64,000 bases of DNA from a phage: sequence record PX393109.1. The stretch is one strand, 5' to 3'. Shown in pieces: positions 21,928 through 55,296 of this stretch. The notes under the pieces were generated by a model. That model ran no database searches, was not told where the DNA came from, and saw only the letters and a program-made list of their open reading frames with translations. Both the position numbers and the translations under genes were made by a program. Every line of letters starts with the position of its first letter. Position 1 is the first letter of the stretch.

Positions 21928-22486
21928 TTTCAGTATGCAGAGTCTTGAAGACTTTGTACCAGAGCATGGTAAGAGCGTAGTAGTCTTCTACCACGAGCGA
22001 TTCTATTCCCGAGTAGAAATGCTACAGATGCAAGTAGAGTTCCACTACCAGATGATAGATGGCGATGGCTGCCCAGTTCCTCAGTGGGCATGCTATGATA
22101 ATCGTGACGACATACCGTTCGATAAGCCATTCATCTGGAAAGATAAGCAGGTTAAGTTCCTTACTCTGGACGACTGTATGGAAATACATAATCGTCATCC
22201 CAAGCACCACTATCGTTACTGGTGGGTTAAGGACTGGTTCCTAACTGGCGGAGGAAATAGCCAGTTAAATAGGGAACAGCTGGCGGAGATGTCGTTAGGG
22301 ATTATGAGTGCCGAACAGTTTAGTGCTGAGCTGGATAAGGGATGTGCTGATCTGGAAGCCAAGCGTATCTTACGTGAATTAACTCGTGAATCCCGTACTG
22401 GATATTGTGAGAAGCATGGCACTCGTCAGCTGGGTAAGGACCTATGTGATGTGTGCCGTATTGAACGTGCATTTATGGAGGGATGA
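21908..22486 (+). CDS. hypothetical protein
   Basis: 192-aa ORF directly upstream of the NADAR gene. Confidence 0.55.
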   Translation: MRNMPINFSMQSLEDFVPEHGKSVVVFYHERFYSRVEMLQMQVEFHYQMIDGDGCPVPQWACYDNRDDIPFDKPFIWKDKQVKFLTLDDCMEIHNRHPKHHYRYWWVKDWFLTGGGNSQLNREQLAEMSLGIMSAEQFSAELDKGCADLEAKRILRELTRESRTGYCEKHGTRQLGKDLCDVCRIERAFMEG

Positions 22487-23142
22487 TGCGGATCTGGACC
22501 GACAAGAACTCTATTCTGGAGTTTATCGGAGAGTACCGATTCCTATCTAACTTTTATCCTGTTCCTATTGAGGATAAGAATCCTTACGGGAACGAGACTC
22601 TTCCCTCCCTTACTTACCCTAGTGTGGAGCATGCCTATCAAGCATCTAAGTCTCCATCACTAGCCCATCGTCTTATCATAGCTAGACTTCATACTCCTGG
22701 TGAGGCCAAGAGATATGGACGTAAGCTGCCCATTACTGAATCGTGGAAGGAACAGAGAGTAGATGTGATGGAACACCTACTCCGGATTAAATTCGCGAAA
22801 GGTGGGGAGCTAGCTCAAAAATTGACCGATACTTGGCCTAAGGAGCTGGTCGAAGGAAATACCCACGGAGATTCCTTCTGGGGTATGACTCGTGAGGAGT
22901 ACAAGTCCGTCCTCACTGGTATTAATATGCTCGGACGATTACTGATGAAACTTCGGGAGGAGTTAGTTATGGAACAAATGACCAAGGAGACAGGATCGTT
23001 TGCGGAGTGGCATAAACTGCTGCACCAATACGCTCAGTCTCGTGGCGGTAGCGCTGCTGATGCGGAAGCCTGGCGGGATGATTACGATGAAGGTAAGACC
23101 CCTAAGCAGGCCTACGACGATGAGTGGGGCGAAGAAGACTAA
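22483..23142 (+). CDS. NADAR (YbiA-like, DUF1768) domain protein
   Basis: FLSNFYP ... EHAYQASK ... FAKGGELAQKL ... GDSFWGM matches the NADAR signature. Confidence 0.75.
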   Translation: MMRIWTDKNSILEFIGEYRFLSNFYPVPIEDKNPYGNETLPSLTYPSVEHAYQASKSPSLAHRLIIARLHTPGEAKRYGRKLPITESWKEQRVDVMEHLLRIKFAKGGELAQKLTDTWPKELVEGNTHGDSFWGMTREEYKSVLTGINMLGRLLMKLREELVMEQMTKETGSFAEWHKLLHQYAQSRGGSAADAEAWRDDYDEGKTPKQAYDDEWGEED

Positions 23143-25136: not shown

Positions 25137-25516
25137 TGTCTCATATGACCCGAGAAGAAATCGTATTGATGGTGGCTAAGGTGTGTCACGAAGCTAATCG
25201 TGCATACTGCCATTCTATCGGAGACTTCACCCAATTAAGCTGGGAAGCAACATCCGATGAAATAAAACAGTCGGCTATTGATGGAGCGTATAACTGCTTA
25301 CACAATAACCGTATCAGCCCAGAAGAGTCCCATGAATTCTGGGTTAAAACTAAAAAGGAGCAGGGCTGGAAGTATGGAGAAATCAAAGATCTCGCAGCTA
25401 AGACGCACCCGTGTATGGTTCCATATTCACGGTTGCCGGAAGAGCATCGAGTCAAAGATCACCTCTTCACCAGCATCTGCGCAGCATTCATTAAACAGTA
25501 CAAAAGGGCATCATGA
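25136..25516 (+). CDS. RyR-domain-like protein
   Basis: [20 protein letters not shown]...[20 protein letters not shown] resembles the bacterial/phage RyR-domain consensus. Confidence 0.45.
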
Positions 25517-25983
25517 TGACCGTAGTTCAAGTAAAGAAAACTATTAACTGGGACGACTCTCTGGAGTTACCGAAATACGCTAAAGCTGGTGATGCTGGTC
25601 TTGATCTTCGTGCGATGATTAAGACTGACGAAATCGATAAAATCGCTGTAAATCCTGGCGAAACTATCCTGGTCCCTACCGGTCTAGCGATCAACATCGG
25701 CGATCCGAACATCGCTTCTGTGATTCTTCCCCGCAGCGGCCTCGGCCATAAAAATGGCATCGTACTGGGTAACTTGGTTGGTCTTATCGACTCCGGCTAT
25801 CAAGGAGAACTGATGGTGTCTGTGTGGAACCGTAGTAACGAATCTTTCGTTATTAACCACGGCGACCGTATCGCTCAAATGGTGTTTCTTCCCGTTATCC
25901 ATCCAGAGCTCCAGCTTGTGGATAAATTCTCTGATGTTTCTGAACGTGGCGACGGTGGGTTTGGCCATTCCGGGATTAAGTAA
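25513..25983 (+). CDS. dut: dUTP diphosphatase (dUTPase)
   Basis: [44 protein letters not shown] and DRIAQMVF motifs. Confidence 0.9.
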
Positions 25984-26065: not shown

Positions 26066-26269
26066 ATGATGGATATTGAGCAACTAACTAAGGATCTTAA
26101 TCGTAACCAGATTACGGTTATTCGTTCGGAGCACTTAGCTCCCAAGACTATGATCGTGTCTGATGATATCTGGGGCACATTCAAGAATAATAATAATAAT
26201 AATAATAATAATGCTACTGTAGAAGCTACAGATGAAGAATCTGTTAAGAACATGCTGGAGCATCCGTAA
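26066..26269 (+). CDS. hypothetical protein with poly-Asn tract
   Basis: Start MMDIEQ with SD GAGGA; contains the (AAT)9 repeat. Confidence 0.5.
   Translation: MMDIEQLTKDLNRNQITVIRSEHLAPKTMIVSDDIWGTFKNNNNNNNNNATVEATDEESVKNMLEHP
26185..26211 (+). repeat. (AAT)9 trinucleotide microsatellite
   Basis: aataataataataataataataataat, in frame, encoding N9. Confidence 0.9.
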
Positions 26270-26892
26270 TGATCCTTGGTAAATCTTATATTGAGCAGGC
26301 AATTACTCAAGGATTATGGACCTATCACAGTTATCTGGACAATCAGGAACCACGAATCGGACAGAATAGTGTAGATGTACGCTTAGCTCCGTTCTTCCTG
26401 GTTCCTCAAAAGATGCCTGATGGCCATGTAGTAGATCCCTATAAACCATGTACTCTTCCGGAGTATCGCGAGGTAGAGGCACTATACTACGATCTTAAAC
26501 CTGGGGAGTTCATCTTAGGCTCAGCATCTGAACGTATCGACTGTACTACCATGTTGCCTGAGAAGTGGTTCGAGCATTATGACCCACGATACCGTAACAG
26601 CACTGTAGACCGTGGTGTGGCATTCTGTCAGCATTACGACGGTCGCAGCACTATGGGTCGTCTGGGAATACTGAGCCATGTCAGTGCAGGTTTCGGGGAC
26701 TTTGGATTCAAGGGAGCATTTACTCTAGAGATTGTTAACCTAAGCCCTAACACTATCCGACTGCGTTCTAACATGCGCATCGGTCAGATTTACTTTACTG
26801 AGGTTGCTGGTGGTGGCTACGACCTTTACAAAGGTTACGACCAGACTGACTTTAAACCAGTCGCACCAATCATAGGTCGCGATCGTTTCTAA
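26269..26892 (+). CDS. dCTP deaminase-like protein (dUTPase-fold)
   Basis: VDVRL and DGRSTMGRLGI...LEIVN...IRL..NMRIGQIYF align with Dcd motifs. Confidence 0.6.
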   Translation: MILGKSYIEQAITQGLWTYHSYLDNQEPRIGQNSVDVRLAPFFLVPQKMPDGHVVDPYKPCTLPEYREVEALYYDLKPGEFILGSASERIDCTTMLPEKWFEHYDPRYRNSTVDRGVAFCQHYDGRSTMGRLGILSHVSAGFGDFGFKGAFTLEIVNLSPNTIRLRSNMRIGQIYFTEVAGGGYDLYKGYDQTDFKPVAPIIGRDRF

Positions 26893-29587: not shown

Positions 29588-30235
29588 TTAAAGAGTTAAA
29601 GTCTGATTTGCTCTGCGTAGTACAGGCAGTCGGTCAGGTACGGTCGCAGCAGACCCATTTATCTTCTGGGTTACTTTGGTGAATGCGTCCTGATCTGCTA
29701 ATTGATTTAATTTATTTTTATCCCAGAACCACCCTGCAGTAAGCATGATCGTTTCGAAATCCGTCTCTACTAACTCTGGATCTTCTACCAAACGGTCATC
29801 GCCAAAGATACTCAAAGAGGCCTCTCGATAGTTAGCTTTGCCAGTTAGATGCATAGCTCCACGGCCAATGTACTTATACCCATCTCCGCTAGCTGGAGTT
29901 CCGTTACCCATGCGATTAGCATACACCTGATTGGCTAACTTCTCAGGGTCGCGTATGTAAGCATTAGCATTAAGCTTACCAGGTTCACCGCGAAGAGTAA
30001 ATCTACTCGGCCACACAGCTACCAGACGAGACGCAGAGGTATAATACAGGGACTCCACAAACTTAGTGTAGTCCCGAGTTTCAAAGGCAGTCTGCGCCAT
30101 AAAATAGCGCAGACGACGATTGGTATTGATACCGTAACGCTCGATAGTAGTATTAATGGCGGGTAGCAGCTTTTCCAGCACTTCCGTTGAAGTTGTCGGG
30201 AGGAACTTCTTCAGCTGGTCAAGTGTAACGCTCAT
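29588..30235 (-). CDS. endolysin, glycoside hydrolase family 19-like
   Basis: YFMAQTAFET...DGYKYIGRGAMHLTGKANY matches GH19 endolysin motifs. Confidence 0.8.
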   Translation of the reverse strand: MSVTLDQLKKFLPTTSTEVLEKLLPAINTTIERYGINTNRRLRYFMAQTAFETRDYTKFVESLYYTSASRLVAVWPSRFTLRGEPGKLNANAYIRDPEKLANQVYANRMGNGTPASGDGYKYIGRGAMHLTGKANYREASLSIFGDDRLVEDPELVETDFETIMLTAGWFWDKNKLNQLADQDAFTKVTQKINGSAATVPDRLPVLRRANQTLTL

Positions 30236-35815: not shown

Positions 35816-38437
35816 TTAAACTGTCTTAAAGGCTGGCGTATCTACGGAAGTTAATACTGCGCCATCAGGAACGTTAGACTGAAGTGCTGGGTACACATCA
35901 AAGTAATAATTACCACCATTGACATAACCACTGCGGACGATAGTACCGACGTAATCAGCGCCATCCGCACCACCACCTCCTGCTATTTTAACCTTACATC
36001 CGGCAGTCTTATAATACTGGCCAGTCCAGTTAAGGTTAGTCTTAGAGCGAATAGAGTTAGATCCAGAAGTAGCGGCAGCGACAGTTTCGTTGGAGTAGAA
36101 CAGAGCTCCAGGAGCAGTCACAGTAAACATAGTTCCGTCACTAGCAACAATAGTGTCGCCAGCCAGCAGAGCCATGCCATAAGGAGTACCGGTCTTGGTA
36201 TGGTAAATCACACCGTTCTGACGCCATGCTGGAGTACCACGGTAATGAGTCGCGGTAGTGGTCTTCTGAATAGGGAAGTTACAATCAGAGACCTCCAGAG
36301 TATCCACCGTGATGTTCTGGACAGTAACGTTAGCCGCACCGGTATTAGGATCAAGGCATTTCATGTTGGAGATGTTAGCAACCATCCACTTGTTACGGCG
36401 GTAGTTATCTCGAGCATCACCAGACGTGTATCGGAAGTCGAGAATGATTTTCTCAGCTGACCAGTCCGAGAGACGATACTCGGATGCCATACCCTGGAGA
36501 GATATGGTGGTAGCTTTGATATTCTTCATCTCGACAGTAGAGTTCAGAGTATCGGTAGTACATACCTCAACATGAACAGTACCAGTGATATTTACGTTAC
36601 GAATACGGATATTACGATGAGCGAAGGTATAGGCATTACTCACTGTACCCCACAGGAAGCGAATCATTTCCTCAGTACCATTAACTGGGGAGCCGATTAC
36701 GCCATCCACATCGATATCCTTACAACCGTAGGCGATAAGGCCTCCAGTATCCAGACCTACACCAGTTGACTTATTGGCATCTGGGTAAATCTCGATGTCT
36801 CGGATAGTGATGTTGCGGCATTTCTCCATATGGATACACTGCTTAGCACCCTTAACCTTAACGTTACTGATTACCACGTCTGACATATACTCGGAATCTG
36901 GAGCAGTCAGAGAGTAGTTACCAGTACCAGCCAGACCAATTGCAATACCCCAGTTGGCGTTACCAGTGCTAGTTGCGTCGACATTATCTACAGTGATGTT
37001 ATCGATTCTGGTATTGGTATCTGCTACTGCCAGGTTAATCTCAATAGGGTCGCTCTTCATGTCGAAGAACTGCAAGTTCTGCAGCAGAGTCGCAGTGAGC
37101 GGCTTGGAGGATGCAGGACTACCCTGACGGAGGTAACCATAATTACAGCGACGCATAATACCGTTAGTGACGAACAGCTGGCTATTAGCCGCTAATTGCT
37201 GACACAGCAGAGCAGCAGTCGCAGAACAGTCATTAATCTCGAACTGGTCGAGTTTAAAAATACCGTTTATGTGACGAATACCGCATTTGCTAAGGTTCAG
37301 CTTAGTTATGTCAGTATCACCATTAACCAGCAGCTGTGAACTAGCACCGGTACCAACTATGGTTAGGTTCTCGATCACTACACCGGAGATATCCACCGAT
37401 TGGTTAGCGATCTTGTAAGTACCCATACCCATAAGCTTAAGACCATAAGTCTTAGCCAGAGTAACAGCGGAGCGAAGAGCTGCTGTATCGTCCGTAGTAC
37501 CGTCGCCTTTAGCTCGAGCCATTTCTGGGGTGATGTATCGAATACCATCAGCCACCGTGCCACCATATCTCAGATAGACAATAGCAGCACCAGTAGTTTC
37601 GCCAGCAGTCATGAGCTCTGACTTAAGAGCACCAGAACCTACAGGAATCCACTTACCAGTCCCCTGTTCAGACTGAGATGGCTCCGGATCTCCATAATTA
37701 ACAACTTTAGGAAGAACACCATCCCATTTATAATACTCCCCATTTACTGAGAAGCTTACAGTCTGGACTCGGGTAGTGAGAGTCAGGCTCTGACCTTCAG
37801 ACAGATCAGTAAGTTTATAATTAACGAAACCTACTTTTTCTGAGATCTCTCTGGTAAGGCTATCGATGCGATCCTGGGTAACGCTAAGAGCATCACGAGA
37901 GTTCAGCTCGGCAGTCACCAGGACGCCCTTCGACAGCTTAATCTTAGTAAGAGTGATCTTGCGACTAATAACATCGATAGTGTAATCTTCTACGCGAGTA
38001 AGGCGGACACCACCTACGAATAGACGTACGCTGGTAAAGGAATAAGGAATATTAAACTCGAATTCCCCATCCTCCTGTACCTCGTAACTCCACTCGATAC
38101 CGCTCTGTACTCCTCCAGTCCAGTAGGATTCTTCGTAGAAGTTACCAGTAGTGGTAAACGGTACAGGACCAGTCCAGTAGTACAGCAGATTATCATATCT
38201 GACATACTGGCGGTCGTTCTCGATCACCATTCCGGAGGCATAGTTACCGAGGATATACATAGACTGACCAGCAGTCTGTTGCAACTCGTTAACGTTGCCT
38301 ATTGTTTCGGCAAGAGTCTCGTCTAATACTTTCTGCTGATTTTCTAACTCTCGAATATCGAGAGTCTGGTTATCATGCTGATAAGTATTAAGAGGAGCTC
38401 CGCCTAGTTCGCTAAATAACTTAGAACGACCGCCCAT
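35816..38437 (-). CDS. tailspike with right-handed beta-helix (pectate-lyase-like) domain
   Basis: Repetitive N/G/T-rich beta-helix-type coils; N-terminal region shares the YYWTG.P motif with other fibres. Confidence 0.6.
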   Translation of the reverse strand: MGGRSKLFSELGGAPLNTYQHDNQTLDIRELENQQKVLDETLAETIGNVNELQQTAGQSMYILGNYASGMVIENDRQYVRYDNLLYYWTGPVPFTTTGNFYEESYWTGGVQSGIEWSYEVQEDGEFEFNIPYSFTSVRLFVGGVRLTRVEDYTIDVISRKITLTKIKLSKGVLVTAELNSRDALSVTQDRIDSLTREISEKVGFVNYKLTDLSEGQSLTLTTRVQTVSFSVNGEYYKWDGVLPKVVNYGDPEPSQSEQGTGKWIPVGSGALKSELMTAGETTGAAIVYLRYGGTVADGIRYITPEMARAKGDGTTDDTAALRSAVTLAKTYGLKLMGMGTYKIANQSVDISGVVIENLTIVGTGASSQLLVNGDTDITKLNLSKCGIRHINGIFKLDQFEINDCSATAALLCQQLAANSQLFVTNGIMRRCNYGYLRQGSPASSKPLTATLLQNLQFFDMKSDPIEINLAVADTNTRIDNITVDNVDATSTGNANWGIAIGLAGTGNYSLTAPDSEYMSDVVISNVKVKGAKQCIHMEKCRNITIRDIEIYPDANKSTGVGLDTGGLIAYGCKDIDVDGVIGSPVNGTEEMIRFLWGTVSNAYTFAHRNIRIRNVNITGTVHVEVCTTDTLNSTVEMKNIKATTISLQGMASEYRLSDWSAEKIILDFRYTSGDARDNYRRNKWMVANISNMKCLDPNTGAANVTVQNITVDTLEVSDCNFPIQKTTTATHYRGTPAWRQNGVIYHTKTGTPYGMALLAGDTIVASDGTMFTVTAPGALFYSNETVAAATSGSNSIRSKTNLNWTGQYYKTAGCKVKIAGGGGADGADYVGTIVRSGYVNGGNYYFDVYPALQSNVPDGAVLTSVDTPAFKTV

Positions 38438-38561: not shown

Positions 38562-41549
38562 TTACTGCTTCTTTTCAAGATCGGAAAGTCTGGCTTCGAT
38601 TCTTTCCAGTCTTCTTCTCTGGAATGCTGCCTCAGCAAAGAAAATTCCATCAGGTCTCACTCCCCACTCCTCACCCTCTTCGTGAATAACCACCTCGGTG
38701 TATACAGGCTCTTCCGTGGTAGTGACATTACCCTCCTCGTCAGTATGTTCAACGACTTCATAGTGAGAGAATACCATGTCTGTCATGCGAGGATATTTGT
38801 CGTAACACAGAACAGCATATCGGCAATCCGTGCTGTCCTCATCCATCAGACCGTGAGCAATGAATACATCACGGATCTGCTGAGCAATTACGCCAAAATG
38901 GATTCTAGCTTCATTCCCTTTTAGGTGTACAGAATCCAACCACTGGTACATAATGTAATGAACGTCTCCCCAAGCATCTAAAAAAGCATCATCAAAAACT
39001 ACCGGCTCTGTTTTCTTCTCTCCGTTAGAAGTAACAATAGGGTTGCTTCCGAGGTATGCAGTGGTGAAACGGTTGCTAGGACCACCAAGCGCAATGACGT
39101 TATCGTTATAAGGCTTAACATCAGCACTCCGAAACAGGTGCTCATCTCCGTTGTAAACTATCCTGCGAGAAGCTGTGTTACTCGCACCGTAAAGCGTAAT
39201 CTGTGCACCAGTAGAAGAACTGGTGCCGTCTCCTCCGCAAAATATGATACGCTGTCCTGCGGGGTTATTAGTCGGTACAGATTTCCCGATAAACCCATAC
39301 TCACCCTCCATTAAAACTTCAGAGCGAATGTTACTACTGGTGCTGGCTCTAATGACCACATGACCTAAACCCAAATCCCCTGTAAATTCCATTGGCGCAG
39401 GAACAGTGCGAGTTCCATTCGTATCAAAAAACACTGGAACCGCTCTGTCAGGTACAGCACCATACCTGAAATCACGAGAAACGCGATTGTCTGGACCGAT
39501 TTTCATTTTGTAACAATACAAATCTGAGGGATGACCGTCTGATTTGAATGGGTCCTTCTCTAAGTTATCTCCATACGTCCATGGGTTCAGATGGTCTTCC
39601 CCACCGAACATGTAATAGATATAACTATCTTTCACGACAACCGATCCGACACCGACTCCAGAGTTAACAATACCACCCTGATAAATCTGATCAGAGATGT
39701 TTACCCACTGAGTATTATCCAAGTTCCAGGTGTCGAGGTTCACTCGCGTGTAGAACGTTCGTGGGTAAGAACTGAAATATCGTTGATCCGGTGCGTTTGC
39801 TTCCCACTCGTTGTCTGCGCGTTCAGTACCGAAAAGAATCAGTTCGTTTCCTACCTTAGCGAATGGCAGGGTAGAGTGGTGTACGTTATTCGGAAACCTC
39901 AGCGATTGCCAGGTAATCCCCAGGTCGTTACTGCGATGAAGAGAACTACCAAGACGATCAGACCTGGTTCCACGGGTTACAACATAAAGAACACCGTCAA
40001 AATACTTAACGCAGGGTTCTGACGCATCTGGCTCATATTCAGCAGGAATACGTCGTTTCTGGTAAAGACCAGGATTGTTGAACGCATCAGGGAAATACAA
40101 CATACCTACTTCACGCGGAGCAACATCACCCTGGTGGTACCCCATCATGAATGAGTCGTTATTGATGGCGGTAAAACTATGAACCTCGGTAACCATAGGG
40201 ATCAATCCAAGACTGGTTTTACGCCATGGTGACTGATGGAACGATGTCCCCATATGCCAGCGGTTGGTAGAGTTATTTTGGTCGAATGCTTGTTGATTTG
40301 GTGTGGTAACTGTGAACGTGTTGCGGTCAATAACTGAAGTTACAGTCATATTCCCAGAAACTCCAGTCACCCCAGAGTTTGAGAAGTTAACAAAATCCCC
40401 AGCAAAAAGACCGTGTTCGGGGATGGTAATTACAGCCACAGACTGGTTGGCCGCTTTTGTTATACCACCTGTCAGATGGTAGTTACGGGACATGGGGCGA
40501 TCCCACAACTCACAGGTCACTAATGCGTTAGCTGCTAAAGTACGGGTCTCAATCATCGCAAAGAGACGATTACGCATCACTCCCATACTCATACAGTGGT
40601 AGTTAACTGTTGGGTAATTAGGGTGTAGGTCAGTTAGCCACTCCGGGGTCGTCCAGGTCTGCCCGTCATCTCCTGAGCGAACCCAGGATACATGAAGCCT
40701 GCTAACCCCGTGCCGATCGCTAGCCATGAACGGACAGTAAATAACATCGTCGTAAACGAACGCTTTATCCTGAGGCCAAGCATTGTAATAAGGGGTATCG
40801 GTTATTTTAATTAACTCGCCCTGAACAAACTCGTCAGACACATAATAAAGCGGCTGGCCAGGAATACGCTCATAAACGAAACGAGTGTTGACGAATCTGC
40901 TAATATCTGGAAGCGCGGATACTTTATAGGTTCTACCGTTACCATTAATTTTCTGACCTACTGGAGCAGCGCTTAACAGATTATTAAGAGCCACAGTATC
41001 ATCGACTAATCCATCACCTTTAGCTCCCCAACCACGAGGGTCGAAAATGTCACGCCATCGAGCAATCTGCAATTCGGGGTATTTTGTTGCACCATCCGGG
41101 TCTGATATTTGCCCTCGCAGTGCGGTATCACCAATACTAGCCCAAGCATCAGAAGAGACACCACCAGTAGTTAGCGGTGATGAGTTAGCATATACAGTTT
41201 TAGGGAACACACCACCCCACACGTAGCACTGGCCACCATCAATATGCCAGACAGCATCCTTTTTACTGTTTACTGTAGCACCTTCTTCAAAAGTGCCAAC
41301 AAGAGTTAGTCCTAAGTCACCTAGTAATAACTTCCACTGTTCTTTAGTATTATTAATTATCGATAAATTAGACTTTTTTAAAATGGAGGTTCTAGTAGCT
41401 AATTGGGTTATTGGATGATTAATATGTCCGGATACTGGTTCATCCTTAGAATTAGTAACTAGTTGACCGCCTTCTGCCCTATCCGTCTTTTCTAAGCGGC
41501 GAATAGTCTCGGGCCAAGTTGACCCTTCTACAATTGGATTATAAGACAT
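38562..41549 (-). CDS. sialidase-like (BNR/Asp-box) tailspike with C-terminal intramolecular chaperone domain
   Basis: Asp-boxes SGDDGQTW and SNDLGITW; C-terminal HFGVIAQQI and terminal coiled coil resemble an S74-type auto-processing chaperone; N-terminal CYVWGGVFPKTV motif. Confidence 0.6.
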   Translation of the reverse strand: MSYNPIVEGSTWPETIRRLEKTDRAEGGQLVTNSKDEPVSGHINHPITQLATRTSILKKSNLSIINNTKEQWKLLLGDLGLTLVGTFEEGATVNSKKDAVWHIDGGQCYVWGGVFPKTVYANSSPLTTGGVSSDAWASIGDTALRGQISDPDGATKYPELQIARWRDIFDPRGWGAKGDGLVDDTVALNNLLSAAPVGQKINGNGRTYKVSALPDISRFVNTRFVYERIPGQPLYYVSDEFVQGELIKITDTPYYNAWPQDKAFVYDDVIYCPFMASDRHGVSRLHVSWVRSGDDGQTWTTPEWLTDLHPNYPTVNYHCMSMGVMRNRLFAMIETRTLAANALVTCELWDRPMSRNYHLTGGITKAANQSVAVITIPEHGLFAGDFVNFSNSGVTGVSGNMTVTSVIDRNTFTVTTPNQQAFDQNNSTNRWHMGTSFHQSPWRKTSLGLIPMVTEVHSFTAINNDSFMMGYHQGDVAPREVGMLYFPDAFNNPGLYQKRRIPAEYEPDASEPCVKYFDGVLYVVTRGTRSDRLGSSLHRSNDLGITWQSLRFPNNVHHSTLPFAKVGNELILFGTERADNEWEANAPDQRYFSSYPRTFYTRVNLDTWNLDNTQWVNISDQIYQGGIVNSGVGVGSVVVKDSYIYYMFGGEDHLNPWTYGDNLEKDPFKSDGHPSDLYCYKMKIGPDNRVSRDFRYGAVPDRAVPVFFDTNGTRTVPAPMEFTGDLGLGHVVIRASTSSNIRSEVLMEGEYGFIGKSVPTNNPAGQRIIFCGGDGTSSSTGAQITLYGASNTASRRIVYNGDEHLFRSADVKPYNDNVIALGGPSNRFTTAYLGSNPIVTSNGEKKTEPVVFDDAFLDAWGDVHYIMYQWLDSVHLKGNEARIHFGVIAQQIRDVFIAHGLMDEDSTDCRYAVLCYDKYPRMTDMVFSHYEVVEHTDEEGNVTTTEEPVYTEVVIHEEGEEWGVRPDGIFFAEAAFQRRRLERIEARLSDLEKKQ

Positions 41550-42323: not shown

Positions 42324-42932
42324 TTACTTGGCAGGTGCTTCTGGCCATACGATAGTATCAGGATCAGTAGTTTCAATAGCTTCTACTTCCTCTTGATAAT
42401 CTAGCCATAAATTGAACTTGACTTTATCAGCATCGCTCAGTCGACCCATTGCCAGTTTGGATGGCCACTGCTTACTATTGATATAAGCATTAGCATCTTC
42501 AATCAGTGCTACTTTCTTAGCATCAGCTGCAGCTACCTTAGATTCGTACTCGGCAACCTCATCCAGTACCCAAGCACTCGTATCTTCATCCCACTTATCA
42601 TGGATTGAAGTAGGTGCGATGATCGTATAAGTGTCATCGATAGGACCAAGCTCCTGGATAGTGACCTTAGTTTGATCATCTTTTGAGTAAACTTCTACTC
42701 CACGGTGATCTTCTACGTATTCCCACTTCTTGGTATCTTCATGATATACTCGTGCATATCCTTCACGTTCTTCAAGTACTGGAACGATGGTGGAGTGAGC
42801 TGGTACTGATACGCCTACGTAGATAAACTCTTCACGATTAAACGTGAACTCATGAGTGTTCTCATTGTAGTTATAAACCATCACCTTACCAGAAGTGGTG
42901 GCAAAACCTTGATCGTTAAATTCAATACTCAT
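42324..42932 (-). CDS. tail fibre assembly protein (Tfa-like chaperone)
   Basis: C-terminal KVKFNLWLDYQEEVEAIETTDPDTIVWPEAP is typical of the Tfa family; directly downstream of a fibre gene. Confidence 0.75.
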   Translation of the reverse strand: MSIEFNDQGFATTSGKVMVYNYNENTHEFTFNREEFIYVGVSVPAHSTIVPVLEEREGYARVYHEDTKKWEYVEDHRGVEVYSKDDQTKVTIQELGPIDDTYTIIAPTSIHDKWDEDTSAWVLDEVAEYESKVAAADAKKVALIEDANAYINSKQWPSKLAMGRLSDADKVKFNLWLDYQEEVEAIETTDPDTIVWPEAPAK

Positions 42933-44374
42933 TATAATGCCCTTACAATAATGTTGTATGCGACGTTACGTGGACGTGTCTCATTCGGAAGATTATCAAC
43001 TATGTTAGTAGTCCTCATATTCTTACTAAGATCATCCAACTCACCACGAGCTCCGGCATGTAGCGTGACATTGTAAGAATTACCTGGTAGCTGAACTGGA
43101 CTGCCATTAGTTTTGATCTGAGTATTATGAATATGTTCCTGAATAGATTGTGATTGACTACTCAAGATAGTTCTTCCTGCATCAACGTTTCTACCGTCAT
43201 CCCAACCACGTATAAATTCACCACGTAGATCAGGTAACTTATTAGTAGGATAAACAGTAGCTAACTTAGGATACAGTTCAGCATCGAAGTTATCACCACG
43301 AGCTTGGATGAAGTGCATACCTTTCAGTTCAGGATATACTTCATCCGGCATCTTATCCGATGGCCAGTAGAAGGGTACACCAATCATCGGTACACCGAAT
43401 TCATACTTGGTCTTATCCATCTTACCAGCTAATGTGACCAGTACTTGCTGCAGATCTGCCACACCAGCATTAGCGATACCTGCGAATAACTTGACTACCC
43501 AGCATCCAATAGCCGCATTAGGACGTACTTCATCAGTACCGTCACGACCATAAGATGGACTAGATACTGAAGCATCAATTCTTATATCTAGTACTCCACT
43601 ATTAGTACTAGATACAGCATTAGACATTTTACCATTATACTCAGCGATTATCGATGAGTTAGATGGTACACCTGATCCGAAGATGTTAACTATATTACTA
43701 ACTGAGCCAGTAATATTAGGTGCACCATTCTGTAGTACTTTACCGGTACGAGCTGTATCACCATTATCACCACGGATGTGCAATCCCTTTATGGAATCAC
43801 TCAGCTTACCATTTAGGTCAGGTACTCGAAAAGTAGTCGTACCATCACCAGTAGTATAACAGTGACGCTTAGTAGGATCAGCTACCCAGTCAGCTTCAGG
43901 ACATACTTGTACTAGTCCAGCATTAATTGCTGCCCAAGTATCAGGATACAAGATACGTGAGAAGATACCACCATCAGCTGCTACGAATCCACCCCATAAT
44001 GGTGACCCTAATAACTTACGAGAGGATAACCACTTAACTTCCAATAAGTTACCAGCACCCATTTGGTCGATCGACCAAGGTACCCAGTTAGAATGGGTGA
44101 TAGGTGCGTTTGCAATATCTACTGGGAAGTTACCCTTCCATGAATATGCACGCTGACGATCAAGAGATACTACTAGATCGAATCGGTTAGATAAGATACC
44201 ACCGAACTCAAAAGTAGCTGCCAGATTGTAACCACAATCGGCTAAGTCATTCGCCCACAACTCGATGATGTTATCTTGGTTGTTCTTAATCTTAGGAGTC
44301 AATTCATTACGAAGTTCACCAGCACCATCAGATGGATTGAAACCAATATAACCACCCATATTAGTTCTCCACAA
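42932..44374 (-). CDS. tail fibre protein with C-terminal collar-like domain
   Basis: GVPFYWPSDKMPDEVYPELKGMHF...LPDLRGEFIRGWDDGR; N-terminal YSWKGNFP motif. Confidence 0.65.
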   Translation of the reverse strand: MWRTNMGGYIGFNPSDGAGELRNELTPKIKNNQDNIIELWANDLADCGYNLAATFEFGGILSNRFDLVVSLDRQRAYSWKGNFPVDIANAPITHSNWVPWSIDQMGAGNLLEVKWLSSRKLLGSPLWGGFVAADGGIFSRILYPDTWAAINAGLVQVCPEADWVADPTKRHCYTTGDGTTTFRVPDLNGKLSDSIKGLHIRGDNGDTARTGKVLQNGAPNITGSVSNIVNIFGSGVPSNSSIIAEYNGKMSNAVSSTNSGVLDIRIDASVSSPSYGRDGTDEVRPNAAIGCWVVKLFAGIANAGVADLQQVLVTLAGKMDKTKYEFGVPMIGVPFYWPSDKMPDEVYPELKGMHFIQARGDNFDAELYPKLATVYPTNKLPDLRGEFIRGWDDGRNVDAGRTILSSQSQSIQEHIHNTQIKTNGSPVQLPGNSYNVTLHAGARGELDDLSKNMRTTNIVDNLPNETRPRNVAYNIIVRAL

Positions 44375-44711: not shown

Positions 44712-45629
44712 TTAGAAAATTAGAGCATTTATGAAAGCTGCATTTTCTACTTCGTTTATGCGAGTAGTTAGAGCATTCTCTACACTATCTAACTGGGCAA
44801 CAGTAGCATAGCGATACAGAGCACCAGTCTTAACAGGAACCCATTTACCATCACCAATACCGTCCGCTTCAGGAGTACTGTTAGCATTTACGGTCTTCGG
44901 AAAATCGCCATCCCAGCGATACAGAACACCATCATGCATAACTATGCAGTGGTTCTGACGTAGAGTAAAGCCAGTACTGAAGTCGCCTCCAGTAAAGTAC
45001 TTATACTCTTCTAATTCGACGGCGTAAGCAGATAAGTCTACTCCACCATTGCTATGTACGAACCATCCGCCAGCTGTTAAGCTAACGATAGTTGATCCCT
45101 CTGGAATACCCATCGGCAAACGATAGGCTTCCTGGGAGGCTAAGTCATACAATACACGAAAGCCGTCGAGAGGACGACCTACTTTCATGAACTGGACTTC
45201 TTCGGTCTTAACTCGGAATGCCCGAGCAACCATGTCCACTTGACGTTGGTTTACCGGAATCACCTCAGTCCATAACCCATCAGGATTACTTTCTGGGTCG
45301 AAAATCCCACCGGTATCTTCTGGAGATGAGTTCTCGGCGACCGATTTGGGGAAGGAGCCTAGCCAGTAATACCACTTGCCAGACACCTCGTCATACACAC
45401 CATCCCCAGAGTCCTGGAGATCAAACCCTATCCCGAAAGTACCTACTGGGTTAATCCCATAGATATCCAGGAATGAATTCAATGCCAGACTACGGAGATA
45501 TGTAGTTCTGTCGGTAAGATTCTTAATGGGTACGTTATCAATACCGTCATCACCACCCGACACTTTGTCAGTACGTTCGAAGGTATAGATGTCCTCTACG
45601 TACTGATTTTTACCCTGATAAGTACCCAT
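44712..45629 (-). CDS. tail fibre protein (paralog family, internal repeat)
   Basis: N-terminus FERTDKVSGGDDGIDNVPIKNLTDRTTYLRSLA; two copies of the W.G.FPK.V...S.PE motif. Confidence 0.6.
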   Translation of the reverse strand: MGTYQGKNQYVEDIYTFERTDKVSGGDDGIDNVPIKNLTDRTTYLRSLALNSFLDIYGINPVGTFGIGFDLQDSGDGVYDEVSGKWYYWLGSFPKSVAENSSPEDTGGIFDPESNPDGLWTEVIPVNQRQVDMVARAFRVKTEEVQFMKVGRPLDGFRVLYDLASQEAYRLPMGIPEGSTIVSLTAGGWFVHSNGGVDLSAYAVELEEYKYFTGGDFSTGFTLRQNHCIVMHDGVLYRWDGDFPKTVNANSTPEADGIGDGKWVPVKTGALYRYATVAQLDSVENALTTRINEVENAAFINALIF

Positions 45630-45641
45630 TTCGATATCCTA

Positions 45642-46409
45642 TTATATAGTGTAAGAGAACGTGTATCTCAGAGACAGCTCGTCTGTACTACCCTGATTAA
45701 TCTCAAGAACAGCCACACTACTGTCCACATCGGCATAAATCTGACCAGCTACTATACCAACGCCAACTCCTGAGAGGCTTGAGTCATCTGAGAAGGTAGC
45801 GTTAATAGGTAAGCCAATTCCTATTTTCATTACTTCTCCGGCATCGGTAGCAGAAGCAGTGATCTTGCCGTTAACAGTAACCACATTCCCTAGTCGGGTA
45901 TATATGGCTTCTGCTATGTCTAGATTGGAGACATTCTCAATCTTAACGAAGGCTGGATTGTACTTACCGCTATACAGATTACCAGGAGCAGCTGCTGTAG
46001 GGATCTTAACCCCAGCACCCAGGTCTAGAACACTGAGATCAATAGCCACCCACTTACCGCTAGGATTGGTGATCGGATCATAGATACCACCAGTAGTTTC
46101 TGGCTTAGAAGACTTAACCACTACTTTAGGTAGAGATCCTGTCCACTTAAACCACTTACCGGAGATCTCGTCGAAGACCGCATACCCAGCCACGTTAATC
46201 TGGAATCCTTGTTTGAACGAGCCGAGAGGATTAAGATTGAACAGCTTAAGGAATGTAAAGTCAGCAAGAGCCTTAAGATAAAACGTACGATCCGACAGCT
46301 GGGTAAGAGGTACGTTATCAATGCCGTCCGGGCCACCTTTAACCACATCACTTTCTTCAAATTGGTACACCTGAGCATGAAAGTTAAATGCCCCAGTATA
46401 ATTGCTCAT
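45642..46409 (-). CDS. tail fibre protein (paralog family)
   Basis: N-terminus FEESDVVKGGPDGIDNVPLTQLSDRTFYLKALA, homologous to the downstream 305-aa protein. Confidence 0.6.
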   Translation of the reverse strand: MSNYTGAFNFHAQVYQFEESDVVKGGPDGIDNVPLTQLSDRTFYLKALADFTFLKLFNLNPLGSFKQGFQINVAGYAVFDEISGKWFKWTGSLPKVVVKSSKPETTGGIYDPITNPSGKWVAIDLSVLDLGAGVKIPTAAAPGNLYSGKYNPAFVKIENVSNLDIAEAIYTRLGNVVTVNGKITASATDAGEVMKIGIGLPINATFSDDSSLSGVGVGIVAGQIYADVDSSVAVLEINQGSTDELSLRYTFSYTI

Positions 46410-51802: not shown

Positions 51803-52438
51803 CTATTTAATAAACCAGGATCTTACATGATCCTCATCCGGCAGATATGCTGGGGTGAAGGACAGTTGCACCTTAGCCCATAACGGCTGACCAGTAGAGC
51901 GAGCTATTTCCTTGCTGTACTGAGTCGACACGTTCACAAGTATAAGGCTAGTTGCCCTGAACCACTGGCCGATCTGCAGAGTCCATGTACCTGTTATAGC
52001 GGTATCCGGATTGAAATTACCAGTCGCCTTGGTTACAGAGTACCCATTAGGAGCTCCGAACATAAGTCCGTTCTTGGTAGTGTATGTTACCCCAGCCAGG
52101 AACTCTTTAACTATGTCCAAAGGTCTGATGGATGGATTGTATGAGATAATTGTCAGAGGCACTGGAAATACTGGTTTGGTACTTCCTCGCCACTGAGCGA
52201 TAGTTTCACGAATATTTCGTATAACCATCTGATCCATACCCACGGTATTAGCTACCGCGTTAGCACCTCGCGTTAAGGTACCAGCCATCAAGTTTTCACC
52301 AGATTCAAACAGAGACGAAATATCGAATCCGAAATCCGTCTCTATAAGACCTACAGTACGGGACTTGTTACCAGGATGGACTAAGACAATTCTAGCATCT
52401 GGATTCGCGTATAGCTTCTCGATGTCTAATACTGCCAT
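51803..52438 (-). CDS. tail protein, unknown role
   Basis: ORF immediately downstream of the tape measure gene. Confidence 0.45.
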   Translation of the reverse strand: MAVLDIEKLYANPDARIVLVHPGNKSRTVGLIETDFGFDISSLFESGENLMAGTLTRGANAVANTVGMDQMVIRNIRETIAQWRGSTKPVFPVPLTIISYNPSIRPLDIVKEFLAGVTYTTKNGLMFGAPNGYSVTKATGNFNPDTAITGTWTLQIGQWFRATSLILVNVSTQYSKEIARSTGQPLWAKVQLSFTPAYLPDEDHVRSWFIK

Positions 52439-55296
52439 TATGAGAACACCATCTTGTTGAAGAACGCCAGACCATAGTCATCAATAGTGTCACTCTTATC
52501 CGTAACCACTGAAGGTACGTTAGGAGTTATAGCAGCAGGATCCTGGTTCCTGGTGGAACCAGCAGCCATAGCGGCCAATTGATTATTCTGATCTTGACGT
52601 TGTTTATTAACATCGTCTGTAGGGGTAGGAGCCTTAGGGACCTCGAGAGGTACGTTCTGAGCAACCTGGGTAGCTCCTGACTTAGATGCCTCAGCATCAG
52701 AACCATTCTTCATCCATTCTGCAGTATATGCAGCACGGTCTGCTAACCCATTATACCCACCATTGACCGCCTTAGTTGCTACTTCAACAGTAGCTCCTTT
52801 CTTCTCCATCTGTGGTCGCACACGATCTTTCCAATATGCAACCGCTAACTTATTGGCGATTTCAGGATCTTCAGCCATCTCAGGATTATTTTCGAGATCT
52901 ATACCCAGCATCTTACCATACTTCTGGTAATTAGCCCTACCAGTAAGCTGTATCCAGCCACGACCCTTATAACGAACCCCGTCCCCAGGATTTACGTTAC
53001 CCAGGTCTTTACGACCCTCGTACGCTTTACCAGAGGCTAGTTCTTTATTATAACGGAAGTTACCAGACTCATGCTGAACCTGGCCCATGAATAGAGCCAG
53101 TTCTTTATCGTCGATTCCCTGCTGCTTAGCATACTCTGCCAGACTATTCTTACGCTCCGTCTGCTCCTTAGAGCTGGGGAGGTATCGAGAGGCATTCTGC
53201 ATAGCGGACTGTAGGATACTACCACCGGCATCAACAGCACTGTCATAACCATTGGATATTATTCCACCAACAGTTCTTGCGCCATTAACTATGGAGGCAC
53301 CTGCTCCGATAATCCCATTGGATACCGCAACAGCTCCTTTCTTAAGTCCTTTAAAGAAGTCACCGACTACCGGTAGGTCTGATAGCCAATCAAATAGGCC
53401 ACCAATACCTTCACCTATAGACTTCATAGGATCATTTATAAATTCTGTAACCAAGTTAGATAATTCACTGATTTCTCCGGTTATGGACTTGGTTACCGAG
53501 TCGTAACTATCGGAGAACCACTTAGAGGTATCGGAGACGGACTTGGAAAGCCAGTCGGATGCATTCTTATACATCCCTGAGAATGACGCCGTTAGGTTAT
53601 TTGCAATATTAACCGCACCTTCGTATGTCTTCTGTACAGTATCTACAGCAGACTTAGCGACATTCACTACATCCTCTGGAGAGGCTAACCCGAAAGTTAA
53701 CCCAGAGGCTAGTGAGGCTGCCGATGAGCCAGCCTTAGCCCAGTTATCATCGCTGCCGAATAGCTCCTTAGCCTTATCTCCATCCCATCCAGAGACAGCA
53801 TCGTAAACTCCCATACCAGCAGTTACGGCTAACCCAATTCCTGGAATGAACTTAGCTCCTCTAAGGCCAGCTCTCAGAAGCGCACCACCTCCACGAGCAG
53901 CGCCTCTCGCAAGTCCTCCGGTGGCAGCTGCGTCGACTGCTCTGCCTGCCATCCTGCCAAGTCTACCGAACCTGCTGAGTCCACGACCGAGACGAGTCCT
54001 GCCTCTTCTTCCCCTACTTCTTCTACCTCTGCGGCCACGCTCATCGCCACCGCCGATAAGATCATCAAAGATAGAATCAGCAGCACCCTGCTTCTGTTCG
54101 TTAGCGAAAGGATCAATTTCTTCATGGTTAGCTCTTCCATTAGCTCTGGTTACCGATACCAGTTGCTCATCGATATCCACCAAAGTAGACTGACCATTAA
54201 TTAACTGAGTCTGCTTACGGGACAGTTCGTCCTGGCCAGACCTAGTCTCATTAATTAACTCTCGAATGCTGTTGTTAATCTCGTCCAGCTTCTGATTCTG
54301 CTCCTCTTCTGGAGTAGGTCCGAAACTGGGTTTTGGATTTACGGTAGCATCTGGAGTAGTAATCTCGACCTTAGTCTCTTTACCGTCGACTTTAGCAGAG
54401 GCCTCAGTGGAAGATTCTCCATCGGGTTTATTTTCTGATTTAAGAATCTCTCGAGATATGGCCTTTAATTCTTCGTCAGTAGTATCCGGTTCGTCTTTCC
54501 TTTTACGGAACATGGATGATATTGCACCATCCAATTTATCAGATATACCGAATACACTATCCAGGTCCCCTAAACCTAAGGCACCTAGACCAGATGAGAG
54601 TGCTTCCTTGCGGACAGAACCTACGGAAAACTGCGATGGGGTATTAAGGAACGAATCCCTTAAATTACGGCCAGTTTGACGTATGTTAAATCTGTCAAGA
54701 GTATCCCTCTCATCCTTACTCCTGTTCGTTAAGTTAGCAACCTTTACCGTATCAGAATATTTAATCTTTACGTTCTGATTGGCTAACTCAGCTCTAGCTT
54801 GCTCAATGATGCGGTTATTCTTCCGCATATTGATAGTACTAAGTGAGGAATTGGATACGTTAAGTACTCGAAGTAACCCACTCAGTTCTCTCATAGCAGT
54901 CATACGGACGCCACGAGTAAGTCTAGAGTCATTTAATATTGACTGATAGGTGTCGAGTAAAGATTCTGCAGCGATGGCCTTTTGATCCTCGGCAGTAGCG
55001 TACATATCCGCAACCTGGCCTACTTTATCTCTTAAGGAGATCAGCTGCTCAGCTTCCTGGGTAGAGAACTTAGCCCTACCGTAAAACTTACCCATCAGTG
55101 TATTCAGGGTCTTAACTTCATCAGAGCTAAGACCGACATCTACATCGTTGCTGGAGAGTATCTTAACAGTAGAACGAATCCCGATAAGATCTTCTTCCAG
55201 TTTAGACCTGGCATGCTCGTAATCAGAGGCATCCTTAATCGGATCGGTAGCTTCTGTACGAGCAATCCCAGATATGCCTCTAACTATGCTAACCAT
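52438..55296 (-). CDS. tail tape measure protein with C-terminal GH19 lysozyme-like domain
   Basis: 952 aa; helical N-terminus; Arg/Gly-rich low-complexity block; C-terminal FMGQVQHESGNF...YKGRGWIQLTGRANY homologous to the endolysin GH19 core. Confidence 0.7.
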   Translation of the reverse strand: MVSIVRGISGIARTEATDPIKDASDYEHARSKLEEDLIGIRSTVKILSSNDVDVGLSSDEVKTLNTLMGKFYGRAKFSTQEAEQLISLRDKVGQVADMYATAEDQKAIAAESLLDTYQSILNDSRLTRGVRMTAMRELSGLLRVLNVSNSSLSTINMRKNNRIIEQARAELANQNVKIKYSDTVKVANLTNRSKDERDTLDRFNIRQTGRNLRDSFLNTPSQFSVGSVRKEALSSGLGALGLGDLDSVFGISDKLDGAISSMFRKRKDEPDTTDEELKAISREILKSENKPDGESSTEASAKVDGKETKVEITTPDATVNPKPSFGPTPEEEQNQKLDEINNSIRELINETRSGQDELSRKQTQLINGQSTLVDIDEQLVSVTRANGRANHEEIDPFANEQKQGAADSIFDDLIGGGDERGRRGRRSRGRRGRTRLGRGLSRFGRLGRMAGRAVDAAATGGLARGAARGGGALLRAGLRGAKFIPGIGLAVTAGMGVYDAVSGWDGDKAKELFGSDDNWAKAGSSAASLASGLTFGLASPEDVVNVAKSAVDTVQKTYEGAVNIANNLTASFSGMYKNASDWLSKSVSDTSKWFSDSYDSVTKSITGEISELSNLVTEFINDPMKSIGEGIGGLFDWLSDLPVVGDFFKGLKKGAVAVSNGIIGAGASIVNGARTVGGIISNGYDSAVDAGGSILQSAMQNASRYLPSSKEQTERKNSLAEYAKQQGIDDKELALFMGQVQHESGNFRYNKELASGKAYEGRKDLGNVNPGDGVRYKGRGWIQLTGRANYQKYGKMLGIDLENNPEMAEDPEIANKLAVAYWKDRVRPQMEKKGATVEVATKAVNGGYNGLADRAAYTAEWMKNGSDAEASKSGATQVAQNVPLEVPKAPTPTDDVNKQRQDQNNQLAAMAAGSTRNQDPAAITPNVPSVVTDKSDTIDDYGLAFFNKMVFS

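What the first reader, a model, noticed from the sequence alone, without database searches (positions are those of the whole stretch)
38562..41549. Sialidase-like tailspike with C-terminal auto-chaperone domain
Two Asp-box repeats (SGDDGQTW, SNDLGITW) indicate a BNR/sialidase-type beta-propeller. The C-terminus (HFGVIAQQI... ending in a coiled coil) resembles intramolecular chaperone domains that are self-cleaved from endosialidases and some fibres. This would be a capsule depolymerase, possibly polysialic-acid specific.
Basis: partly seen in the sequence, partly recalled or inferred. Interest (0 to 1): 0.55.

Follow-up and report, generated by a model that had tools for sequence, protein, structure and literature searches.

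The report
Phage endosialidase tailspike with self-cleaving chaperone
This gene encodes a phage tailspike that cuts the polysialic-acid (K1) capsule of E. coli; it is a close relative of the well-studied phage K1F enzyme, so it is a correct but ordinary finding.

Summary
The observation and the interpretation both hold. Window 38562..41549 (minus strand) is one intact 995-aa ORF. It matches all four Pfam endosialidase domains (beta-propeller E 2e-204) and Peptidase_S74. It scores 1334 bits against the crystal structure of phage K1F endosialidase (endoNF) over residues 171-840, and 582 bits against the endoNF stalk plus chaperone structure 3gw6.

Both Asp-boxes are present. The catalytic residues H350/R549/E581/R596/R647, in K1F numbering, are conserved. 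So are the Ser-Lys autocleavage dyad (S841/K846) and the GVIAQ motif.

The nearest relative (98.6% aa) is a gene of Escherichia phage vB_EcoM_IME392, deposited only as "putative tail fibers protein". The whole window is an IME392-like phage.

What differs from K1F is the N-terminus. Residues 1-85 are a lineage-private anchor, found only in IME392 and EP_H11 among 50,697 phage records. A Tail_spike_N domain, also present in K1F, follows it.

The gene sits in a cluster of several receptor-binding genes, next to a phi92 gp150-type colanidase spike.

Verdict: a new member of a very well known kind, of low interest. Enzyme activity and autocleavage are inferred from homology and were not tested.

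The parts
38562..41549 (-). Complete endosialidase tailspike precursor gene: 995 aa, 111.3 kDa, stop codon included.
   Evidence: ORF list. 98.6% aa and 96.4% nt identical to IME392 AXY86125.1. Purifying selection. Masses.
41298..41549 (-). Lineage-private N-terminal anchor, aa 1-84; presumed attachment to the baseplate or to an adaptor protein.
   Evidence: No Pfam or PDB match for aa 1-62. tblastn of aa 1-85 finds only IME392 (100%) and EP_H11 (49% over aa 1-59) among 50,697 phage records. 30-34% identical to the N-termini of the 305-aa and 255-aa proteins that carry only a Tail_spike_N domain.
41127..41297 (-). Tail_spike_N (TSP1/Gp66-type) domain, aa 85-141.
   Evidence: PF18668, 55.4 bits against a cut-off of 25. 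PDB matches 9vvr, 8x8m, 5w6h and 4oj5. Protein-level homology to K1F gp17 begins at aa 87.
40824..41024 (-). Endosialidase N-terminal extension, aa 176-242.
   Evidence: PF12218, E 1.2e-35. Aligned to 1v0e from chain residue 2.
39498..40823 (-). Catalytic six-bladed beta-propeller, aa 243-684. It carries Asp-boxes at aa 292-299 and 540-547 and catalytic residues H280, R479, E511, R526 and R577.
   Evidence: PF12217, E 2e-204, profile positions 1-366 of 367. Residues checked. Residue roles taken from PMC12632334 and PMC2955717.
40242..40490 (-). Beta-barrel (polysialic-acid-binding) domain inserted in the propeller, aa 354-436.
   Evidence: PF12195, E 4.4e-40. K1F barrel residues S460, S468 and G504 correspond to S390, S398 and G434, all conserved.
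39030..39491 (-). Triple-beta-helix stalk, aa 687-840. It ends at T840, the predicted C-terminus of the mature spike.
   Evidence: PF12219, E 3.6e-76. The 1v0e and 3gvl chains end at the residue aligned to T840. The K1F mat_peptide boundary is at residues 910|911. K1F stalk residues R812 and Y821 correspond to R742 and Y751, both conserved.
38565..39029 (-). C-terminal intramolecular chaperone domain (Peptidase S74), aa 841-995, 18.1 kDa. It has the S841/K846 dyad, GVIAQ at aa 886-890 and a helical tail.
   Evidence: PF13884, 35.5 bits against a cut-off of 22. 3gw6 scores 582 bits over aa 720-994 and 3gud E 2e-12. About 93% identical to the K1F C-terminal domain by my count on the alignment. 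Dyad and GVIAQ roles from PMC3742440.

Best explanation
The gene encodes a homotrimeric endosialidase tailspike (endo-N-acetylneuraminidase, the endoNF type) of an IME392-like myovirus of E. coli. Shown here: the domain order is a private N-terminal anchor, a Tail_spike_N domain, the endosialidase N-extension, a six-bladed beta-propeller with an inserted beta-barrel, a triple-beta-helix stalk, and a C-terminal Peptidase S74 chaperone domain. Every catalytic, substrate-contact and autocleavage residue I could check is identical to K1F endoNF. The one exception is K410, which is alanine here. Inferred from the K1F literature: the C-terminal domain trimerises and templates folding of the stalk. 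The Ser841-Lys846 dyad then cuts the chain between T840 and S841, releasing an 18-kDa fragment and leaving a 93-kDa mature spike. On the virion, the spike binds alpha-2,8-polysialic acid (the K1 capsule) through sites in the barrel and the stalk. It cleaves the polymer in the propeller active site, so the phage tunnels through the capsule to the outer membrane. Inferred from the neighbouring genes: the spike is one arm of a multi-protein receptor-binding apparatus and is held through aa 1-85. The K1-specific cassette (from about aa 87 onward) was acquired by module exchange with other phage lineages.
For: Pfam: PF12217 E 2e-204, PF12219 E 3.6e-76, PF12195 E 4.4e-40, PF12218 E 1.2e-35, and PF18668 and PF13884 above their cut-offs. 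PDB: endoNF 1v0e/3gvl 1334 bits over aa 171-840, 3gw6 582 bits over aa 720-994, phi92 endosialidase 4hiz 767 bits. Conserved residues (query number = K1F number minus 70): H280, R479, E511, R526, R577, Q260, K515, N629, R742, Y751, S841, K846 and D924. Their roles come from PMC12632334, PMC2955717 and PMC3742440. The cleavage-site context GSNPIVT|SNGE(K/R)KTEP matches K1F apart from that one K/R position. The K1F record annotates mature gp17* and gp17-CTD split at residues 910|911. Context: the gene lies in a run of tail and fibre genes, syntenic with and 97% nt identical to phage IME392. The next gene is a phi92 gp150-type colanidase spike. Anchor: aa 1-59 are 49% identical to the N-terminus of the positional counterpart in EP_H11, whose C-terminal part is unrelated. 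The same cassette occurs at 64-90% aa identity in Kayfunavirus (K1F), Gamaleyavirus (UE-S5a), Ackermannviridae (YX22) and Lederbergvirus (phiv205-1). Purifying selection: 87 synonymous against 14 non-synonymous codon changes relative to IME392.
Against: Nothing found here contradicts it. Caveats: no activity, cleavage or host-range data exist for this sequence. K410, reported as essential in vitro for endoNF, is alanine (A340) here and serine in YX22. However, K410A was tolerated in phage K1F in the deep mutational scan (PMC12632334). The host of IME392 is given only as 'Escherichia coli', with no capsule type. How aa 1-85 attach to the virion is inferred only from paralogy and gene position.
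Confidence: 0.93

Rival explanations
1. It is an endosialidase-fold spike whose substrate range differs from K1F. It might also, or instead, cleave K92-type alternating alpha-2,8/alpha-2,9 polysialic acid or O-acetylated K1 variants.
For: There are about 100 substitutions against endoNF across the catalytic part, including K410 to A340. The K1F mutational scan shows that barrel-loop and stalk substitutions change discrimination among K1 strains (PMC12632334). The phage carries several other spikes and fibres, so it may have a broad host range.
Against: All active-site residues are unchanged, as are the stalk and barrel contact residues I could check. The protein is much closer to endoNF (1334 bits) than to the phi92 enzyme (767 bits).
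Confidence: 0.1
2. It is a catalytically dead, lectin-like polysialic-acid-binding spike that adsorbs to the capsule without degrading it.
For: K410, described as essential in vitro for endoNF, is alanine here.
Against: H280, R479, E511, R526 and R577 are all intact. K410A phage K1F showed no growth defect. Most changes against IME392 are synonymous, so the coding sequence is under purifying selection.
Confidence: 0.03
3. It is a non-functional remnant or a misassembled chimera, not a virion protein.
For: It is a mosaic: the N-terminal 85 aa and the remainder have different relatives.
Against: The ORF is full length and uninterrupted. It is collinear along its whole length with an independently sequenced phage, IME392. 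The same N-terminal module heads a different spike at the same position in EP_H11, which is the normal pattern of tailspike module exchange.
Confidence: 0.02

Closest known systems
Endosialidase F (endoNF, gp17) of Escherichia phage K1F; PDB 1v0e, 3gvl, 3ju4 and 3gw6
   Same: From aa 87 to the C-terminus the domain order is the same: Tail_spike_N-like region, N-extension, propeller with barrel, stalk, chaperone domain. Identity is 80.8% by tblastn over aa 87-994. It is about 85% in the crystallised part by eye from the alignment and about 93% in the chaperone domain by my count. The catalytic residues, the Ser-Lys dyad and the GVIAQ motif are identical, and the cleavage-site context differs at only one K/R position.
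   Different: K1F gp17 has about 155 N-terminal residues that have no counterpart here; from my own knowledge these form its T7 gp17-type tail-attachment domain. Here they are replaced by an unrelated 85-residue anchor, so the protein is 995 aa rather than 1064 aa. K410 is alanine here. The carrier is an IME392-like phage (IME392 genome 116 kb, named as a myovirus) with several receptor-binding proteins, not a 40-kb podovirus.
AXY86125.1, 'putative tail fibers protein' of Escherichia phage vB_EcoM_IME392 (MH719082.1)
   Same: It is the orthologue: 98.6% aa identity over all 995 residues, in the same genomic position with the same neighbours.
   Different: There are 14 amino-acid differences. 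The deposited name does not say endosialidase. The fibre cluster beside it differs: IME392 has two fibre genes and two assembly genes where the window has one chimeric fibre gene.
Endosialidase of phage phi92 (PDB 4hiz) and its neighbouring colanidase spike gp150 (PDB 6e0v)
   Same: The phi92 endosialidase matches at 767 bits. The gene next to the endosialidase here matches phi92 gp150 at 231 bits. From my own knowledge, phi92 is a myovirus that carries an endosialidase among several spikes and fibres, which is the same overall arrangement.
   Different: The catalytic part here is much closer to K1F than to phi92. The phage backbones are not similar by megablast: only IME392 and EP_H11 cover more than the spike gene itself.
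Peptidase S74 intramolecular chaperone domains of other phage spikes and fibres (GA-1 neck appendage, PDB 3gud) and of the eukaryotic factor MYRF
   Same: Ser-Lys dyad with a spacing of five residues, GVIAQ trimerisation motif, and self-release after folding (PMC3742440). 3gud matches at E 2e-12.
   Different: Those domains are attached to unrelated N-terminal parts. Here the domain is the endoNF version itself.

Membership tests
Phage endosialidase (endo-N-acetylneuraminidase, endoNF type) | Full-length match to the endosialidase beta-propeller catalytic domain | tested here: met
   PF12217 E 2e-204, profile positions 1-366 of 367, aa 243-684. 1v0e and 3gvl score 1334 bits.
Phage endosialidase (endo-N-acetylneuraminidase, endoNF type) | Two Asp-boxes in the propeller | tested here: met
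   SGDDGQTW at aa 292-299 and SNDLGITW at aa 540-547, aligned with the K1F Asp-boxes.
Phage endosialidase (endo-N-acetylneuraminidase, endoNF type) | Catalytic residues H350, R549, E581, R596 and R647 (K1F numbering) | tested here: met
   H280, R479, E511, R526 and R577 are present. Roles are from PMC12632334 and PMC2955717.
Phage endosialidase (endo-N-acetylneuraminidase, endoNF type) | K410, reported as essential in vitro | tested here: not met
   A340 here and serine in YX22. K410A is tolerated in phage K1F (PMC12632334), so this residue is not decisive for membership.
Phage endosialidase (endo-N-acetylneuraminidase, endoNF type) | Beta-barrel domain inserted in the propeller, and a triple-beta-helix stalk with polysialic-acid contacts | tested here: met
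   PF12195 E 4.4e-40 (aa 354-436) and PF12219 E 3.6e-76 (aa 687-840). S390, S398, G434, R742 and Y751 are conserved.
Phage endosialidase (endo-N-acetylneuraminidase, endoNF type) | Cleavage of alpha-2,8-linked polysialic acid | not testable with these tools
   This needs an enzyme assay on colominic acid or K1 capsule.
Peptidase S74 / C-terminal intramolecular chaperone domain | Profile match above the curated threshold, and similarity to the solved domain | tested here: met
   PF13884 35.5 bits against a cut-off of 22, aa 844-901. 3gw6 scores 582 bits over aa 720-994, and 3gud E 2e-12.
Peptidase S74 / C-terminal intramolecular chaperone domain | Ser-Lys dyad five residues apart at the cleavage site, and the GVIAQ motif | tested here: met
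   S841 and K846 in IVT|SNGEKKTEP, and GVIAQ at aa 886-890. Roles are from PMC3742440. The K1F boundary at residues 910|911 is from the record annotation.
Peptidase S74 / C-terminal intramolecular chaperone domain | Autoproteolytic release of the domain after trimer folding | not testable with these tools
   This needs expression and SDS-PAGE of wild type against S841A and K846A. Expected products are 93.2 kDa and 18.1 kDa.
TSP1/Gp66-type tailspike N-terminal domain (Pfam Tail_spike_N) | Profile match above threshold | tested here: met
   PF18668 55.4 bits against a cut-off of 25, aa 85-141. Matches to 5w6h, 4oj5 and 6nw9.
K1F gp17 N-terminal region (from my own knowledge, its T7 gp17-type tail-attachment domain) | Similarity of the N-terminal region to K1F gp17 residues 1 to about 155 | tested here: not met
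   In alignment A1 the first 85 residues do not align meaningfully with K1F. tblastn against K1F starts at aa 87. tblastn of aa 1-85 finds only IME392 and EP_H11.

The most novel reading that the evidence does not exclude
The spike may dock by a mode not yet described. Its private 60-85-residue N-terminal peptide is paralogous to the N-termini of two short proteins that carry only a Tail_spike_N domain (305 aa and 255 aa). That peptide would plug it into a branched, multi-arm receptor-binding complex of an unclassified phage lineage, the IME392/EP_H11 group. This window also encodes a fragment of a multisubunit RNA polymerase. IME392 is listed in a paper on thymidine-hypermodified phage genomes among phages whose DNA polymerase resembles that of YerA41. 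K1 specificity would have been acquired by cassette exchange at the Tail_spike_N boundary. The enzyme itself would still be a conventional endosialidase.
Probability: 0.35. Interest if true: 0.3.

Novelty: new member of a known kind. Interest (0 to 1): 0.15.

Why it matters
The practical value is modest. The result correctly labels a gene that is deposited only as 'putative tail fibers protein'. It predicts that IME392-like phages infect K1-capsulated E. coli, the capsule type of strains that cause neonatal meningitis and urinary-tract infection. That prediction is useful when choosing phages or depolymerases for therapy or diagnostics. The gene is also one more example of the same K1-specific cassette moving between at least six phage lineages behind different N-terminal anchors. 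No open question about endosialidases or chaperone domains is advanced.

Tried and rejected
(1) I first recalled the cleavage site as Ser911|Asp912. The K1F record (mat_peptide boundary at residues 910|911), the end of the 1v0e chain and the alignment (K1F also reads TSNGE) showed this was wrong, so I dropped it.

(2) I looked for sigma-70-type promoters and intrinsic terminators around the gene. The counts do not exceed those in shuffled sequence (21 against 19.2, and 5 against 5.4), so nothing is claimed.

(3) No tRNA genes were found in the window.

(4) The exact protein was looked up in the 15-billion-sequence collection and is not there. That tells us only that this allele is new.

(5) The IME392 paper (Arch Virol 2021) and two JBC papers on endoNF are not held in the library. 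I therefore could not check whether the IME392 authors noticed the endosialidase. I also could not confirm my recollection of the stalk binding-site residues (R837, S848, Q853), so those residues are not used.

(6) The loci for K1F and YX22 were not available to the Python sandbox. The alignment tool was used instead.

(7) I did not run structure prediction, fold search or the large protein-database searches. High identity to solved structures already answers the question, and those searches are expensive.
Full report
**Observation.** The finding's coordinates are exactly one ORF on the minus strand, 38562..41549. It has an ATG start and 995 codons, and the end coordinate includes the stop. 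HFGVIAQQI starts at aa 884. The last twenty residues place hydrophobic residues at L981, I984, L988 and L991.

**What it is.**
- Pfam gives six matches above threshold: Tail_spike_N (aa 85-141), End_N_terminal (176-242), End_beta_propel (243-684, E 2e-204, full profile length), End_beta_barrel (354-436, inserted in the propeller), End_tail_spike (687-840) and Peptidase_S74 (844-901).
- Against solved structures, the best matches are the phage K1F endosialidase endoNF (3gvl and 1v0e, about 1334 bits, aa 171-840), the phi92 endosialidase (4hiz, 767 bits) and the endoNF stalk plus chaperone structure (3gw6, 582 bits, aa 720-994).
- K1F residue numbers equal the query number plus 70.
- The residues named as catalytic or substrate-binding for K1F are H350, R549, E581, R596 and R647 (PMC12632334; PMC2955717). 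They correspond to H280, R479, E511, R526 and R577, and all are present.
- Further residues highlighted by the K1F mutational scan are also conserved: Q330, K585, N699, R812, Y821, D994, and barrel residues S460, S468 and G504.
- The one exception is K410, which is A340 here. K410A was shown to be tolerated in phage K1F.

**C-terminal domain.** The K1F record annotates mature gp17* and gp17-CTD with the boundary at residues 910|911. The crystallised mature chain ends at the residue aligned to T840. The context GSNPIVT|SNGE(K/R)KTEP matches K1F apart from that one K/R position. S841 and K846 reproduce the Ser-Lys dyad with its five-residue spacing, and GVIAQ (aa 886-890) is the conserved trimerisation motif (PMC3742440). 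Predicted products are 93.2 kDa and 18.1 kDa. Autocleavage itself is inferred, not shown.

**Where it sits.** The nearest relative is a gene of Escherichia phage vB_EcoM_IME392 (MH719082.1). It is 96.4% identical in nucleotides and 98.6% in protein, and is deposited as 'putative tail fibers protein'. Window 28-52 kb is 97% identical to IME392 over 98% of its length. EP_H11 shares the backbone over 44% of that stretch but carries different spikes. Against IME392 the gene has 107 nucleotide differences, 87 of them at third codon positions. At codon level that is 87 synonymous and 14 non-synonymous changes, which indicates clear purifying selection.

**Neighbouring genes.**
- An 873-aa spike homologous to the phi92 colanidase gp150 (6e0v, 231 bits).
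- A 484-aa protein with weak depolymerase-like matches.
- Collar-type fibres with a fibre-assembly protein.
- Two short proteins that carry only a Tail_spike_N domain.
- A DUF4815 protein and a baseplate-wedge tail-fibre-network component.

The endosialidase is therefore one of several receptor-binding proteins in this phage. From my own knowledge, phi92 is arranged in a similar way.

**What differs from K1F.** Protein-level homology to K1F begins at aa 87. Residues 1-85 replace the first ~155 residues of K1F gp17, which from my own knowledge form its T7-type attachment domain. Among 50,697 phage records, aa 1-85 are found only in IME392 and EP_H11. In EP_H11 the first 59 residues (49% identical) head an otherwise unrelated 560-aa protein at the same genomic position. 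The same N-terminal stretch is 30-34% identical to the N-termini of the two proteins that carry only a Tail_spike_N domain. I infer that aa 1-85 are the lineage's docking module and that the K1 cassette was acquired by module exchange. The cassette occurs at 64-90% identity in K1F (Kayfunavirus), UE-S5a (Gamaleyavirus), YX22 (Ackermannviridae) and phiv205-1 (Lederbergvirus). It is more distant in phi92.

**Mechanism.**
1. Inferred from K1F: the C-terminal domain trimerises and templates the triple beta-helix.
2. Inferred: the dyad cuts at T840|S841 and the domain leaves.
3. Inferred: the mature trimer, held on the baseplate through its N-terminus, binds polysialic acid at the barrel and stalk sites and cleaves it in the propeller. 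This lets the phage penetrate the K1 capsule.

What is shown here is the conservation of every sequence feature those steps require.

**Rivals.** An altered substrate range (for example K92 or O-acetylated K1) cannot be excluded by sequence. It is unlikely, given the conserved active-site and contact residues and the closer similarity to endoNF than to the phi92 enzyme. A catalytically dead lectin or a gene remnant is contradicted by the intact catalytic residues, the full-length collinearity with IME392 and the purifying selection.

**Novelty and verdict.** This is a bona fide endoNF-type endosialidase precursor with its Peptidase S74 chaperone domain, and both families are very well characterised. 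A 98.6%-identical orthologue is already public, under an uninformative name. The exact allele is not in the large protein collection. I rate it a new member of a known kind and of low interest. The only mildly new aspects are the lineage-private anchor and the multi-spike context in an unusual phage backbone.

Noticed in passing
window 35816..38437 (-): The adjacent 873-aa tailspike is homologous to the phi92 colanidase spike gp150 (PDB 6e0v, 231 bits; PHROG 6117 'colanic acid degradation', E 8e-177). Its N-terminal 202 aa are 47% identical to the N-terminus of an otherwise different 824-aa fibre in EP_H11. This is the same anchor-plus-exchangeable-head pattern seen in the endosialidase.
   Followed up: partly
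window 42932..44374 (-), compared with L001 10377..13614: The 480-aa collar-type fibre looks like a chimera of two separate IME392 fibre genes. Its N-terminal ~310 aa are 68% identical to AXY86120 and its C-terminal ~370 aa are 62% identical to AXY86122. The window lacks one fibre gene and one fibre-assembly gene that IME392 has, which suggests a recombination or deletion between paralogues.
   Followed up: partly
window 44712..45629 (-) and 45642..46409 (-): These are two short proteins (305 and 255 aa) that carry Tail_spike_N domains but no enzymatic or receptor-binding head. Their first 123 aa are 49% identical to each other and 47-50% identical to the N-terminus of a 780-aa EP_H11 protein. 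They are also 30-34% identical to aa 14-131 of the endosialidase. They are candidate branching or adaptor proteins for the spike complex.
   Followed up: partly
window 76..1164 (+): A 362-aa ORF matches RNA polymerase Rpb1 domain 2 (PF00623, E 1.3e-23). This is a fragment of a multisubunit RNA polymerase large subunit. From my own knowledge it is reminiscent of the split virion and non-virion RNA polymerases of phiKZ/AR9-type phages, and it seems unusual in a phage whose closest relatives have genomes of 111-116 kb.
   Followed up: no
window 25513..25983 (+), 26269..26892 (+), 13009..13977 (+): A dUTPase and a dCTP-deaminase-like protein are present, plus a weak, sub-threshold glycosyltransferase-family match. 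IME392 is listed in PMC12686479 among phages whose DNA polymerase resembles that of YerA41, in a paper on thymidine-hypermodified genomes. This lineage may therefore carry modified DNA.
   Followed up: no
window 7788..8561 (+), 8626..10569 (+), 22483..23142 (+): The window also encodes a Pol-beta-like protein (DNA_pol_B_thumb plus HHH_8), an NAD-dependent DNA ligase and a NADAR-domain protein. This is an unusual set of repair or modification genes for a coliphage.
   Followed up: no
window 52438..55296 (-) and 29588..30235 (-): Two proteins carry a glycoside hydrolase family 19 (chitinase class I-like) domain. One is a 952-aa protein in the tail gene run; its IME392 and EP_H11 counterparts are annotated as a glycoside hydrolase and a lytic murein transglycosylase, so it is probably a tail-associated lysin. 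The other is a 215-aa protein whose EP_H11 counterpart is annotated as the endolysin.
   Followed up: no
window 39750..40049 (-), which is nt 1501-1800 of the gene (aa 501-600): Differences from IME392 are concentrated in one 300-nt bin: 30 differences there, against 1-15 in every other bin. The first 300 nt have only 1 difference. This suggests a small recombination patch in the part of the gene that encodes the catalytic residues E511, R526 and R577.
   Followed up: partly
window 40530..40532 (-), aa 340: Position K410 of endoNF, reported as essential in vitro, is naturally alanine here and in IME392, and serine in YX22. This agrees with the K1F mutational scan, which found K410A tolerated during infection.
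   Followed up: yes
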